From positions 23,008-87,007 of the forward strand of contig JACPNK010000007.1 in NCBI GenBank assembly GCA_016185525.1: a DNA stretch of 64,000 nucleotides. Reading direction: 5' to 3'. The translations under genes were made by a program, and so were the position numbers. The notes under the pieces were generated by a model, which saw nothing but the letters and a program-made list of their open reading frames with translations, was not told where the DNA came from and searched no databases. Positions 61,166 to 62,879 of the stretch are shown piece by piece; position 1 is the first letter of the stretch, and each line of letters begins with the position of its first letter. The stretch comes from Candidatus Yanofskybacteria bacterium. Lineage in GTDB: Bacteria > Patescibacteriota > Minisyncoccia > 2-02-FULL-40-12 > IGHO2-12-FULL-4.

Positions 61166-61191
61166 AGAGCGTTAACACGCTCTTTTGTTTT
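61166..61191 (+). terminator. Terminator agagcg-ttaaca-cgctct plus tttgtttt; its 3' half is duplicated at 62857-62879
   Basis: Read directly from the sequence. Confidence 0.6.
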
Positions 61192-61195
61192 AAAT
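61173..61195 (+). repeat. 23-bp direct repeat taacacgctcttttgttttaaat (left copy) bounding the GC-rich segment
   Basis: Identical 23-mer at 62857-62879. Confidence 0.8.
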
Positions 61196-61196
61196 C

Positions 61197-61319
61197 GCGG
61201 CGGCAGATAAGCTGTAACTCTCACCCCAATACAACTTTGTCTCTACTGGTGGTGGGGCAGTGCTAGCATTCCTGGCGGGGGAAGAGTTGCCAGGGTTAAA
61301 AGCTTTGGAAACAGTCTAA
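61197..61319 (+). pseudogene. pgk: Phosphoglycerate kinase 3'-terminal fragment with an internal stop
   Basis: Translates [39 protein letters not shown]. This is about 85% identical at the protein level to the C-terminus of the intact pgk at 42.2 kb, but divergent at synonymous sites. Confidence 0.6.
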
Positions 61320-61362
61320 TTTTGACTATTTTTCGGGGGTTTTGGTCGGGTAGTACATACAC

Positions 61363-61391
61363 TTGACAAACCCATAAAAAAAGAGTATAAT
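61363..61391 (+). promoter_or_regulatory. Perfect consensus sigma70 promoter TTGACA, 17-nt spacer, TATAAT
   Basis: Exact match read directly from the sequence. It points into the GC-rich segment. Confidence 0.55.
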
Positions 61392-61599
61392 TAAAGTATT
61401 GAAAAGTGGTTATTCCGGGTCACGGGTCAGCCTTTTTTCATTTTTTGCTCTTTTATAAATAAAAATAAATAAAAAAGACTTTTACCCCGACGCGAAGGGG
61501 ACTGACGGTCGCGAGCAGAGGCAATTACGCTTCTTCGCGGCCAAGGTAGTTGCAGTAAAAAATCAGTCCCGCTATGGAGCGCGGACGGGGGAGAAGAAA

Positions 61600-61818
61600 A
61601 TGTTATTAGTAGGGATGTGGGTGGAAGTGAGTGGAGTCGCAATGAATTATGACTCCACTAAAAAAATGTATTTACCCGCCGCGGCAAGAGGCGAACGGGG
61701 GGTTGTTAACTCCAACCATCCCAGTGGGATGGTTGGAGTCAGATTTTCAAAGTTTGTAGGATACGGCCATCAGCCGTACTTCTACTACTTTAAGGAAAGC
61801 GATCTCATCGAGTTATAA
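61600..61818 (+). CDS. Hypothetical 72-aa protein (aromatic-rich C-terminus), ends inside a 15-bp perfect hairpin
   Basis: GGGGGAGAAG RBS before the ATG. A hairpin ggaaagcgatctcat...atgagatcgctttcc lies at 61781-61822. Confidence 0.3.
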   Translation: MLLVGMWVEVSGVAMNYDSTKKMYLPAAARGERGVVNSNHPSGMVGVRFSKFVGYGHQPYFYYFKESDLIEL

Positions 61819-62113
61819 TGAGATCGCTTTCCAAGGGTTTGAGGATTTTCCCGCGGTAAATAAAAATCCTAGCTCTTTCAATAAAAGCGCAAAGAAAGGA
61901 GAACATTTGCACATAAGATAGCAGGGGATCGTCCTGCTGAAAAAACGACTAGGTCTGGCGAGTACCTGAAACTAAAACTCGCCACCTTAACTCAAGCTAT
62001 CAATATAGTGTTGACGGCTTGATCCAAGGTTAGGACGTTAAAAAAATAAATAGCCGGGTTTAACTCGGCGAGCAGGGGACTGCTTGAGTGTCCCACCCTT
62101 GAAAGGAGGGTTT

Positions 62114-62278
62114 ATGAGATCAGAGGTTTTATTGAACAGATTAGATATGGAGGCAGCACTGGCGAATGCCTCCGAAGAAATTTTGACCCCGTACTGGGGG
62201 GTGGTGGGTGGCGTGACCAAAATGGGAGTCGCCGCCGCGATAGCAACAGGGCGGGGGCCAGGAGTGGTCAATAAGTAA
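62114..62278 (+). CDS. 54-aa Gly/Ala-rich small peptide, bacteriocin-like (speculative)
   Basis: AAAGGAGGG RBS 4 nt before the ATG. Sequence MRSEVLLNRLDMEAALANASEEILTPYWGVVGGVTKMGVAAAIATGRGPGVVNK. Confidence 0.35.
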   Translation: MRSEVLLNRLDMEAALANASEEILTPYWGVVGGVTKMGVAAAIATGRGPGVVNK

Positions 62279-62303
62279 TGGCCACCTGTCGCCCAAAAGC
62301 GAT

Positions 62304-62492
62304 TTGGTAATTTATGTAAATATTGCCCTCGCGGAGTTGGTGGGCGGCAAGGCGGAAGCCCAGGGGCTGACGCCAACTTTATTGAGAAGGAGATTGGAGA
62401 GGATGGGGCTACTCACCGAGGCCGGTGAGTGGCGGACAGGTTGGATCGGGAACCGTTATCGGTTCCAGGTGGATCCGGTGGCCTGTCGGTAG
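62304..62492 (+). CDS. Second small ORF (62 aa from TTG 62304, or 29 aa from ATG 62404 which has an AAGGAG/GGAGAGG RBS)
   Basis: Contains LAELVGG. Followed 4 nt later by a terminator. Confidence 0.3.
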   Translation: MVIYVNIALAELVGGKAEAQGLTPTLLRRRLERMGLLTEAGEWRTGWIGNRYRFQVDPVACR

Positions 62493-62495
62493 AAT

Positions 62496-62518
62496 CGTCG
62501 GCAGGATCGACGTTTTTT
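62496..62518 (+). terminator. Terminator cgtcg-gcaggat-cgacg plus T6
   Basis: Read directly from the sequence. Confidence 0.6.
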
Positions 62519-62823
62519 AGTGAATTGAATCGCAATGCTTCTTCGGAAATGCACAGCGATTCGACCGCATGGGTAATGGCGGTATAGCCGGGCGCAAGCT
62601 CGAGGTGCATGGATCGAAGATTTCTTTCGACCCTGGTAAATTAAAAATCCGAGCATGACCTACCTTTTGCCGCGAGGCATCTAGAGGGTCATGGGCTCCT
62701 ACGAATTGGAGCAAAATGCAATCATAAAGAATTTATATATAGGGAGATCTCGTTTGATCGACATCTCCCTTCCTTACTCAAGTTCGGAAGTGAAAACTTA
62801 CGAATTTGAATGAAAGTTTTTTT

Positions 62824-62851
62824 GAGCCAGCCCCAAGCTGGCTCTTGTTTT
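62824..62851 (+). terminator. Terminator gagccagc-cccaa-gctggctc plus ttgtttt
   Basis: Read directly from the sequence. Confidence 0.6.
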
Positions 62852-62856
62852 ACCCG

Positions 62857-62879
62857 TAACACGCTCTTTTGTTTTAAAT
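62857..62879 (+). repeat. 23-bp direct repeat, right copy
   Basis: Identical to 61173-61195. Confidence 0.8.

What the first reader, a model, noticed from the sequence alone, without database searches (positions are those of the whole stretch)
61173..62879. GC-rich 1.7 kb foreign cassette bounded by 23-bp direct repeats, with its own promoter, small ORFs and terminators
Everything between two identical 23-mers (taacacgctcttttgttttaaat, starts 61173 and 62857) is visibly GC-richer than the roughly 40% GC backbone. The left repeat sits inside the terminator of the CYTH gene, so the segment looks inserted into that terminator. Read on the plus strand it carries four features in order. First, a pgk 3' fragment. 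Second, an exact TTGACA-17-TATAAT promoter (61363-61391). Third, three small ORFs, each with a strong Shine-Dalgarno (61600, 62114, 62304/62404). Fourth, two intrinsic terminators (62496, 62824) and several long perfect hairpins (61781-61822 and 62727-62756). No long protein-coding ORF explains the region. It looks like a horizontally acquired, self-contained small-gene module: a peptide or toxin cassette, a satellite or plasmid remnant, or a structured-RNA locus. It is not an obvious member of any family I can name.
Basis: seen in the sequence. Interest (0 to 1): 0.75.

Follow-up and report, generated by a model that had tools for sequence, protein, structure and literature searches.

The report
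Strain-variable foreign insert carrying orphan structured RNA
A 1.66-kb piece of foreign DNA, present in only part of a groundwater Yanofskybacteria population, sits between a gene terminator and a tRNA gene; it has a broken gene end, a perfect promoter and hairpin-dense sequence whose last 330 bases look like a previously undescribed structured RNA.

Summary
An exact 23-bp direct repeat (61173-61195 and 62857-62879) brackets 1661 bp. That stretch is the GC-richest and most tetranucleotide-deviant one of its size in the 64-kb window.

The insert is real. Independent Logan assemblies reproduce both junctions. Their contig ends fit an empty-site allele coexisting in some samples. Related genomes have CYTH-terminator-tRNA-Gln with only 50-370 bp between them.

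The insert starts inside a foreign pgk 3' pseudogene, only 68% identical at the protein level to the resident pgk. Next comes a perfect TTGACA-17-TATAAT promoter, then about 1.1 kb of hairpin-dense sequence, terminator T1, a 330-nt segment and terminator T2.

- **No coding support:** there is no long ORF under any genetic code and no Pfam, NCBIfam or PHROG domain except PGK. ORF1 and ORF2 have no homologue and period-3 signal is low.
- **Structure:** folding z-scores are about -3 across the insert and about 0 in the flanks.
- **3' segment (62519-62856):** z is -5.8, and all four tetraloops on the + strand are GNRA or UUCG (0 of 100 shuffles), with none on the - strand.
- **Databases:** no Rfam family matches and no homologue was found, so covariation cannot be tested.

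Best reading: horizontally captured DNA carrying a non-coding structured-RNA unit. The small-protein reading is not excluded for ORF1.

The parts
61166..61195 (+). Terminator-like hairpin of the CYTH-like gene (stem 61166-61172 / 61177-61183, T-rich tail). The left copy of the 23-bp direct repeat is 61173-61195.
61194..61319 (+). 5'-truncated foreign pgk 3' end (about 41 codons) with an in-frame TAA at 61215-61217. It is a pseudogene fragment, and pgk homology starts right at the end of the repeat.
   Evidence: tblastx gives 68% aa identity to the resident pgk 41188-42339. Pfam PGK E=0.003. NCBIfam PGK/TIM E=7e-6. Alignment by eye.
61363..61391 (+). Perfect sigma-70-type promoter, TTGACA-17-TATAAT, reading into the interior.
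   Evidence: 12 of 12 positions. By my arithmetic about 0.01-0.02 such sites are expected in the whole 64-kb window.
61400..61463 (+). Weak hairpin followed by two U-runs just after the predicted start site. It could be a 5' stem-loop or an attenuator; its role is unknown.
61481..62495 (+). Hairpin-dense, GC-rich body with no supported coding. It holds ORF1 (61600-61818), ORF2 (62114-62278), ORF3 (62304-62492), perfect palindromes (61630-61659, 61709-61739, 61794-61832 and others), and a twice-occurring motif TTTAMCYCGRCG.G.AGGGGACTG (61481 and 62059).
62496..62518 (+). Intrinsic-terminator-like site T1: 6-bp GC-rich stem followed by TTTTTT.
62519..62823 (+). Candidate structured RNA domain. 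High-probability helices are capped by C[UUCG]G (62542), C[GCAA]G (62594), C[GCGA]G (62672) and U[GAAA]A (62792).
   Evidence: z=-5.8. 4 of 4 special tetraloops against a shuffle mean of 0.11, with 0 of 100 shuffles reaching 4 and 0 on the - strand. Highest count in the window by a model-free count. Base-pair probabilities. No Rfam match.
62824..62851 (+). Intrinsic-terminator-like site T2: 8-bp stem with 6 GC pairs, then TTGTTTT. The insert ends 5 nt later, at 62856.
62857..62879 (+). Right copy of the 23-bp direct repeat. It lacks the 5' stem half of the terminator.
62902..62925 (+). Remnant of the native tRNA-Gln (acceptor 5' strand and D-arm), 100% identical to the tRNA-Gln that follows CYTH in relatives. 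It marks the ancestral neighbour of the insertion site.

Best explanation
**What it is.** The segment 61196-62856 is foreign chromosomal DNA, probably from another Patescibacterium with higher GC. It was captured in the 65-bp spacer between the CYTH terminator and tRNA-Gln of a Candidatus Yanofskybacteria genome. That spot is a recombination hot spot. The capture duplicated 23 bp of target sequence. The insert is still polymorphic in the natural population: filled and empty alleles coexist.

**What it carries.** It carries the dead 3' end of the donor's pgk and the transcription unit that lay downstream of pgk in the donor. That unit consists of a consensus promoter, about 1.1 kb of hairpin-dense RNA ending at T1, and a roughly 330-nt domain of GNRA/UUCG-capped helices ending at T2. 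I read this unit as non-coding structured RNA transcribed from the + strand, not as a set of small protein genes.

**Shown**
- the repeat, the insertion relative to related genomes, and the foreign pgk fragment
- the promoter and terminator consensus matches
- the excess of secondary structure with sharp edges at the insert boundaries
- the strand-specific excess of stable tetraloops
- the absence of any homologue or protein domain

**Inferred**
- the empty allele (from contig ends)
- the donor lineage
- transcription of the unit
- that the RNA has a function, which may exist only in the donor
- the insertion chemistry: two illegitimate joins at a staggered break, with at most a 2-nt AT microhomology on the left
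For: **Insertion and polymorphism**
- Logan contigs L005, L006 and L008 span both junctions at 100% identity.
- L003 and L004 end exactly at 61195. L040, from the same sample as L003, starts exactly at 62857. L009 is exactly 61166-62886, that is the insert plus 30 nt on each side.
- That is the pattern of a k=31 bubble whose other arm is the empty site. A circle or tandem junction would break contigs at 61173 and 62879 instead.
- Relatives with 56-60% identical CYTH have ftsH-prfB-ftsE-ftsX-...-CYTH-terminator-tRNA-Gln(CTG), with 50-370 bp between CYTH and the tRNA.
- Removing the insert leaves 65 bp.

**Foreign origin**
- The pgk fragment is 68% identical at the protein level to the resident pgk and shows no nucleotide match to it.
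- The GC and tetranucleotide values are the extremes of the window.

**Not protein-coding**
- Six-frame Pfam and NCBIfam scans give only PGK.
- No stop-codon reassignment opens a long ORF.
- ORF1 matched only itself in 1.84 billion representatives. ORF2 matched only itself in the word-indexed search.
- Period-3 signal is 0.2-1.9 against a window median of 2.5.

**Structure**
- Sliding-window z-scores are about -3 from 61080 to 62840 and about 0 outside.
- Perfect hairpins occur at 7 per kb against 1.6 per kb.
- The 3' segment has z=-5.8. 4 of 4 tetraloops are GNRA or UUCG on the + strand only, with 0 of 100 shuffles matching. Its helices have pairing probabilities above 0.9.
- The promoter and both terminators lie on the + strand.
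Against: - No homologue of the interior was found anywhere, so there is no covariation evidence. One sequence cannot prove an RNA gene.
- Folding z-scores are equally negative on both strands. In the 5' 1.1 kb the stems are mostly perfect Watson-Crick palindromes with atypical loops and no tetraloop bias (1 of 4). That fits DNA-level palindromes as well as it fits RNA.
- ORF1 has a gene-like codon-frame score: 0.231 against 0.284 +/- 0.099 for real genes, a value reached by only 2-3% of spurious or shuffled ORFs. It also has a well-placed GGAG, and NCBI annotated a 58-aa version of it.
- A hairpin with U-runs directly after the promoter could stop most transcripts.
- No promoter is seen in front of the 3' domain.
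- The empty allele is inferred from contig ends, not read directly.
Confidence: 0.55

Rival explanations
1. It is a small-protein cassette. ORF1 (72 or 58 aa) and perhaps ORF2 (54 aa) are translated orphan proteins, and the hairpins are intercistronic stabilisers or terminators.
For: - GGAG-type motifs lie 6 and 4 nt before the ATGs at 61600 and 62114.
- The codon-frame scores of ORF1 (0.231) and ORF2 (0.172) are reached by only 2-3% and 4-8% of spurious or shuffled ORFs.
- PGAP and Prodigal called them as genes.
- The 15-bp hairpin 61794-61832 sits at ORF1's stop codon.
Against: - ORF1 has no relative among 1.84 billion cluster representatives. ORF2 has none in the word-indexed search.
- Pfam and PHROGs give no hit.
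- Period-3 signal is low.
- ORF1 contains perfect 9- and 14-bp palindromes.
- The Shine-Dalgarno of ORF2 is buried in a predicted hairpin.
- Shuffled insert sequence gives about 2 ORFs of 50-90 codons per strand, against 4 observed.
- AlphaFold confidence is low to middling, at pLDDT 60.6 and 70.3, and there is no fold match.
Confidence: 0.2
2. It is a cis-mobilisable integrative element. The 23-mers are attL and attR, and an integrase encoded elsewhere inserts and excises the 1684-bp circle at this terminator.
For: - Identical 23-bp flanking repeats.
- The presence/absence polymorphism.
- The site adjoins a tRNA gene. In a relative, a large serine recombinase abuts the same tRNA-Gln.
Against: - The insert has no integrase or excisionase. 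The excisionase-like look of ORF3 failed Pfam, PDB sequence and Foldseek tests.
- No circle-junction signature appears in the contig ends.
- The 23-mer occurs nowhere else in the window or in IMG/VR.
- A truncated housekeeping gene directly at the boundary looks like random chromosomal DNA, not an element end.
Confidence: 0.12
3. It is inert captured DNA. The RNA-like features were functional only in the donor, and in this genome the segment is neutral filler on its way to being lost by recombination between the repeats.
For: - Part of the population lacks it.
- The pgk piece is dead and has acquired a stop codon.
- No homologue of the interior was found in any other genome searched.
Against: The promoter is still a perfect consensus and the 3' domain helices are intact. 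All copies are identical, however, so there has been no time for decay either way. This rival overlaps the best explanation and differs from it only on present function.
Confidence: 0.3
4. It is a retroposed transcript. A reverse transcriptase copied a read-through RNA (pgk 3' end through T2) and inserted the cDNA by target-primed synthesis, which gave the 5' truncation and the target duplication.
For: The insert begins in mid-gene and ends 12 nt after the T2 stem, which is about where a transcript would end. It is flanked by a target duplication.
Against: - The pgk piece is foreign, not a copy of the resident gene.
- No reverse transcriptase was identified.
- No precedent is known to me in bacteria.
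- The coincidence of ends is only one feature.
Confidence: 0.03
5. It is an assembly chimera joined at a shared 23-mer.
For: The repeat length is close to common k-mer sizes, and the composition differs from the flanks.
Against: At least three independent Logan assemblies from different runs read through both junctions with k=31, which is longer than 23.
Confidence: 0.02

Closest known systems
Strain-specific genomic islets (small horizontally acquired indels) at tRNA-adjacent hot spots
   Same: It is foreign in composition, sits next to a tRNA gene, varies between strains of one population and is bounded by a short direct repeat. In a relative, the same tRNA-Gln has a serine-recombinase element beside it.
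   Different: It has no integrase and no cargo protein gene. The repeat is not part of the tRNA. One end is a truncated housekeeping gene.
Large ornate non-coding RNAs (GOLLD, ROOL, OLE; Rfam families)
   Same: It is a GC-rich, ORF-poor island in an AT-rich genome, with many hairpins and GNRA-capped helices. It lies on variable DNA near a tRNA; from memory, GOLLD and ROOL often lie near tRNAs in prophages.
   Different: No Rfam model matches, even at E<10 on the isolated segment. There are no homologues, so no covariation evidence. The 5' part has perfect palindromes that are unlike curated RNA families.
Transposon or casposon insertions with target-site duplication
   Same: A direct duplication of target sequence flanks the inserted DNA.
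   Different: A 23-bp duplication is longer than usual; from memory, most IS elements give 2-14 bp and casposons 14-15 bp. There are no terminal inverted repeats and no transposase in the insert.
Illegitimate or homology-facilitated integration of foreign DNA in naturally competent bacteria
   Same: A random chromosomal fragment of another organism is joined with little or no microhomology. From memory, Patescibacteria encode competence-type uptake machinery.
   Different: No long homologous anchor is present on either side, and the mechanism does not by itself predict a 23-bp duplication.

Membership tests
Any Rfam 15 RNA family (including GOLLD, ROOL, OLE, group I and II introns, RNase P, tmRNA, riboswitches) | Covariance-model score at or near the family's gathering threshold | tested here: not met
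   The gathering scan of the window finds only two tRNAs. E-value scans of 60900-63100 and 62490-62880 give only chance-level hits; the best is mir-753 at 25.5 bits against 62, and Termite-leu at 19.7 against 51.
Insertion sequence / transposon | Transposase gene inside the element | tested here: not met
   Six-frame Pfam and NCBIfam scans find only the PGK C-terminus.
Insertion sequence / transposon | Terminal inverted repeats | tested here: not met
   The repeat finder reports no inverted repeat pairing the two ends.
Insertion sequence / transposon | Target-site duplication | tested here: met
   An exact 23-bp direct repeat is present. Its length is atypical.
Integrative element (tyrosine or serine recombinase, attL/attR) | Integrase (and often an excisionase) encoded in the element | tested here: not met
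   No recombinase domain is found. The excisionase-like look of ORF3 is not confirmed.
Integrative element (tyrosine or serine recombinase, attL/attR) | Identical core repeats at both ends, and presence of excised or empty forms | tested here: inconclusive
   The repeats are present. An empty allele is inferred from contig ends. No circular-junction signature is seen.
Type I toxin-antitoxin / small toxic peptide cassette | Short hydrophobic membrane peptide with an overlapping antisense RNA | tested here: not met
   The ORF1-3 translations are not hydrophobic helices. No minus-strand promoter is found inside the insert.
Plasmid, phage or satellite remnant | Sequence or protein similarity to known mobile replicons | tested here: not met
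   blastn against the phage set gives only a 38-nt chance hit and against the plasmid set gives none. PHROGs gives none. IMG/VR scans give none.
Structured non-coding RNA gene (generic) | Conserved secondary structure supported by compensatory changes in homologues | not testable with these tools
   No homologue could be retrieved. Only single-sequence evidence is available.

The most novel reading that the evidence does not exclude
The insert encodes a new class of large structured non-coding RNA: about 1.1-1.45 kb from its own consensus promoter, with a 330-nt GNRA/UUCG-rich 3' domain. It moves between Patescibacteria genomes on an integrase-less cassette and is caught here as a presence/absence polymorphism. 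An even more exotic reading, that it is a retroposed transcript, is not excluded, but I rate it at about 3%.
Probability: 0.2. Interest if true: 0.7.

Novelty: new variant of a known kind. Interest (0 to 1): 0.42.

Why it matters
Patescibacteria have tiny genomes with little room for spare DNA. A 1.7-kb non-coding, strain-variable insert with a perfect promoter is therefore unusual cargo.

If the RNA is real, it would be an orphan large structured RNA in a phylum where almost no regulatory RNAs are known. It would also be a natural gain/loss experiment, because filled and empty alleles occur in the same samples.

If it is inert, it is still a clean, datable example of capture of foreign chromosomal DNA with a 23-bp target duplication in an uncultured, presumably competent lineage. 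It lies next to a second foreign replacement, a homing endonuclease plus tRNA-Gln, at the same hot spot.

Tried and rejected
**Known families and domains**
- Rfam at gathering and at permissive thresholds, on the window, the region, the 3' segment and the HEG region: nothing but tRNAs.
- Pfam, PHROGs and NCBIfam on the ORFs and on six-frame translations: only PGK.
- Alternative genetic codes: no long ORF appears.

**Searches for homologues**
- blastn against phages and plasmids: nothing useful.
- A concatenated-ORF protein search returned nothing, not even self hits, so it was uninformative.
- ORF1 exhaustive HMMER search: only itself. ORF2 word-indexed search: only itself.
- A 528-aa 'member' of ORF2's cluster proved unrelated.
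- Donor hunt with the pgk fragment in GTDB genomes. The best hit was a Wildermuthbacteria pgk at 68%. No insert-like DNA lay downstream of any retrieved pgk.
- JGI metagenomes: the empty-site 37-mer gave 0 hits, and seeds from 62038-62412 found no relative.
- IMG/VR: ORF1, ORF2, ORF3, the 23-mer and the HEG all gave nothing.

**Tests of specific ideas**
- The excisionase-like appearance of ORF3 was not confirmed: pLDDT 70, best Foldseek E=0.59, no PDB sequence hit.
- k-mer enrichment and a REP-like family among the hairpins: none found.
- A group I intron around the HEG or tRNA remnant: none found.

**Not done**
- I did not build a covariance model. With one sequence and only about 0.3 Mb of held DNA the yield would be negligible.
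Full report

Yes. The 23-mer TAACACGCTCTTTTGTTTTAAAT occurs exactly twice, at 61173-61195 and 62857-62879. There is no third copy even with 3 mismatches, and none is expected by chance.

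The 1661 bp between the copies are 47.7% GC, against 41.4% for the window. Only 0.3% of 1661-bp windows reach that value, and all of them overlap this segment. Its tetranucleotide usage is the most deviant of any 1.66-kb window: L1 distance 0.341 against 0.235 +/- 0.028. Dinucleotide relative abundance is unremarkable.

The left repeat is the loop, 3' stem and T-tail of a terminator-like hairpin (61166-61183) after the CYTH-like gene. The right copy lacks the 5' stem half.

The other features check out as follows:
- The promoter at 61363-61391 matches the consensus at 12 of 12 positions.
- Terminator-like sites lie at 62496-62512 followed by T6, and at 62824-62844 followed by TTGTTTT.
- The ORFs are present.
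- The perfect hairpins are real, at slightly different coordinates from those given.

**2. Is it an artefact?**

No. Logan assemblies of several sequencing runs (SRR12113383, -422, -424, -428) reproduce the segment and both junctions at 100% identity. These assemblies use 31-mers, so a 23-bp repeat cannot by itself cause a false join.

**3. Organism and ancestral state**

The CYTH-like protein is identical to an NCBI protein of a Candidatus Yanofskybacteria MAG on a 109.8-kb contig.

Relatives whose CYTH protein is 56-60% identical keep the same gene order: ftsH(-), prfB, ftsE, ftsX..., CYTH. In them, tRNA-Gln(CTG) follows 50-370 bp after CYTH.

In the window, 62902-62925 is a 21-24-nt remnant of exactly that tRNA, 100% identical to the relatives. 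Deleting the insert and one repeat leaves 65 bp between the CYTH stop and this remnant. So the ancestral arrangement was CYTH-terminator-tRNA-Gln, and the segment is an insertion.

**4. Polymorphism**

- Contigs L003 and L004 end exactly at 61195.
- L040, from the same run as L003, starts exactly at 62857.
- L009, seen in several runs, is exactly 61166-62886, that is the insert plus 30 nt on each side.

With k=31 this means two things. The 30-mer made of 7 nt of left flank plus the repeat has two successors. The 30-mer made of the repeat plus 7 nt of right flank has two predecessors. That is the signature of an empty-site allele coexisting with the filled one. A circular or tandem junction would instead break contigs at 61173 and 62879.

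This is an inference from contig ends. The 37-nt empty-junction unitig is too short to be stored. The empty-site 37-mer is absent from the JGI collection, which does not hold this population.

L040 is shared by both arms of the bubble. The downstream homing-endonuclease segment is therefore present in both alleles and is independent of the insert.

**5. Anatomy**

- **pgk fragment.** pgk homology starts at 61194-61196, right at the end of the repeat, and runs to the stop at 61317-61319, with an in-frame TAA at 61215-61217. The translation [40 protein letters not shown] aligns with the resident pgk C-terminus [38 protein letters not shown]. Identity is 68% at the protein level, with no nucleotide-level match. 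The fragment is therefore foreign and not a local duplicate. The best GTDB match is a Wildermuthbacteria pgk, also at 68%, so a Patescibacterial donor is plausible but unidentified.
- **Junctions.** Both are illegitimate joins. At most an AT dinucleotide is shared on the left.
- **Transcription unit.** After the pgk stop come the perfect promoter, a weak hairpin with U-runs (61400-61463), an AT-rich stretch, about 1.0 kb of GC-rich sequence, T1, about 305 nt, and T2. The insert ends 5 nt after the T2 tail.

**6. Coding or not?**

Against coding:
- Six-frame Pfam and NCBIfam scans find only PGK.
- No reassignment of a stop codon opens a long frame.
- ORF1 matched only itself in an exhaustive HMMER scan of 1.84 billion cluster representatives.
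- ORF2 matched only itself in the word-indexed search.
- Pfam and PHROGs gave nothing for the small ORFs.
- Period-3 signal across the insert is 0.2-1.9, against a window median of 2.5.
- ORFs of 50-90 codons arise about twice per strand in shuffled insert sequence.
- ORF1 contains perfect 9-bp and 14-bp palindromes, and its stop lies in the loop of a 15-bp one.

For coding:
- ORF1's codon-frame score is 0.231, close to real genes of this genome (0.284 +/- 0.099). Only 2-3% of spurious or shuffled ORFs reach it. ORF2 scores 0.172, reached by 4-8%. ORF3 scores 0.008, which is not gene-like.
- ORF1 and ORF2 have well-placed GGAG motifs.

Single-sequence AlphaFold models are of low to middling confidence, at pLDDT 60.6 and 70.3. 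An excisionase-like impression of ORF3 found no support in Foldseek or PDB sequence searches.

I conclude that coding is unsupported but not excluded for ORF1.

**7. Structure**

In 160-nt windows, folding z-scores against dinucleotide shuffles are around 0 in the flanking genes. They lie between -1 and -8 (mean about -3) from 61080 to 62840, on both strands, with sharp edges at the insert boundaries. Perfect stems of at least 7 bp are 4.4 times denser than in the window as a whole.

The 3' segment stands out:
- z is -5.8.
- Every tetraloop in its + strand minimum-free-energy fold is of a specially stable RNA type: C[UUCG]G at 62542, C[GCAA]G at 62594, C[GCGA]G at 62672 and U[GAAA]A at 62792.
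- Shuffles give a mean of 0.11 such loops, and 0 of 100 reach 4. The minus strand has none.
- A count that needs no energy model puts this stretch at the maximum of the whole 64 kb.
- Most of its helices have pairing probabilities above 0.9.

This strand-specific signal is what one expects of a functional RNA and not of DNA palindromes.

The 5' 1.1 kb shows no such bias. Its long perfect stems with odd loops could be RNA processing sites, DNA-level palindromes or neutral.

No Rfam family matches any part, even when the 391-nt segment is searched alone with lax filters.

**8. Mechanism**

The best-supported account is capture of a foreign chromosomal fragment at a hot spot. The fragment runs from mid-pgk to just past a terminator.

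How the 23-bp duplication arose is not resolved. The options I considered are:
- **A break staggered by 23 nt and filled in.** One boundary lies at the 5' edge of the terminator loop and the other at the end of its T-tail. A structure-specific cut at the hairpin is therefore conceivable. This is inference only.
- **Integration of a 1684-bp circle at a 23-bp att site by a recombinase acting in trans.** There is no integrase in the insert and no circle signature.
- **Retroposition of a read-through transcript.** The 5' truncation plus an end at a transcript terminus plus a target duplication fit this. However, the pgk piece is foreign and no reverse transcriptase is known here.

The neighbouring LAGLIDADG gene marks a second, independent foreign replacement at the same tRNA. 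It is probably not the agent: its presumed target is the tRNA gene 46 bp away, and both alleles carry it.

**9. Limits**

The 3' domain itself has therefore not been searched in those collections.
- All retrieved copies of the insert are identical, so population variation gives no information.
- Expression could not be tested.

**10. Verdict**

- The reading as a foreign, self-contained module is right.
The peptide/toxin and plasmid/satellite readings are not supported.
- It belongs to no known family.

I score interest as moderate, at 0.42. There is a clean and unusual insertion polymorphism, and good single-sequence evidence for an orphan structured RNA in a phylum poor in known RNAs. But there is no homologue, no expression data and no function.

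Noticed in passing
window 62902-63922: The native tRNA-Gln is truncated after its D-arm (remnant 62902-62925, identical to relatives). It is followed by an AT-rich (about 34% GC) free-standing LAGLIDADG homing endonuclease gene (62956-63858, Pfam LAGLIDADG_3 E=1.9e-10). The last 11 nt of that gene overlap a complete but different tRNA-Gln(CTG) (63848-63922), which has compensatory changes in its stems. This looks like a foreign HEG plus tRNA module that replaced the resident tRNA. No group I intron signal is present, and no phage or IMG/VR relative was found.
   Followed up: partly
window 51745-52471: An IS200-like Y1 transposase ORF (51792-52430, Pfam Y1_Tnp E=1.1e-11) is flanked on both sides by the same long perfect palindrome, ACAATGGGCATCTTTGCA...TGCAAAGATGCCCATTGT. 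The stems are 23 bp at 51745-51793 and 18 bp at 52431-52471. This is a RAYT/REP-like or IS200-like arrangement. The region is the second most tetranucleotide-deviant in the window.
   Followed up: no
L035 5767-7446 (minus strand): In a related groundwater contig, the 1.7-kb 'gene-free' stretch after tRNA-Gln holds an uncalled 559-aa ORF that looks by eye like a large serine recombinase. The ORF overlaps the 3' end of the tRNA. The same tRNA-Gln is therefore an integration site in a relative.
   Followed up: partly
L005 3800-3960 (about 20-180 nt beyond the window end): There is a near-consensus promoter, TTGACA-18-TATGAT. It is followed by about 105 nt whose ends pair (GGCUCGGAGG...CCUCCGGGCU) and then by a U-run, all just upstream of a translational-GTPase gene (MEIRNIAIIAHVD...). 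This is a possible small RNA. Rfam finds nothing at E<0.1.
   Followed up: partly
window 61481-61504 and 62059-62082 (also 62361): A 24-nt motif, TTTAMCYCGRCG.G.AGGGGACTG, occurs twice, 578 nt apart. Each copy follows an A-rich AAAAATAAATA stretch and lies upstream of ORF1 or ORF2. A shorter CAGGGGCTGAC lies upstream of the ORF3 internal ATG. GGGGACTG occurs nowhere else in the window. The significance is borderline.
   Followed up: partly
protein cluster of window ORF2 (62114-62278): The 90%-identity cluster of the 54-aa ORF2 lists a 528-aa solute-binding-like protein (P0124) as a member. BLASTP shows no similarity (E=1.6). This is a database clustering oddity, not biology.
   Followed up: yes
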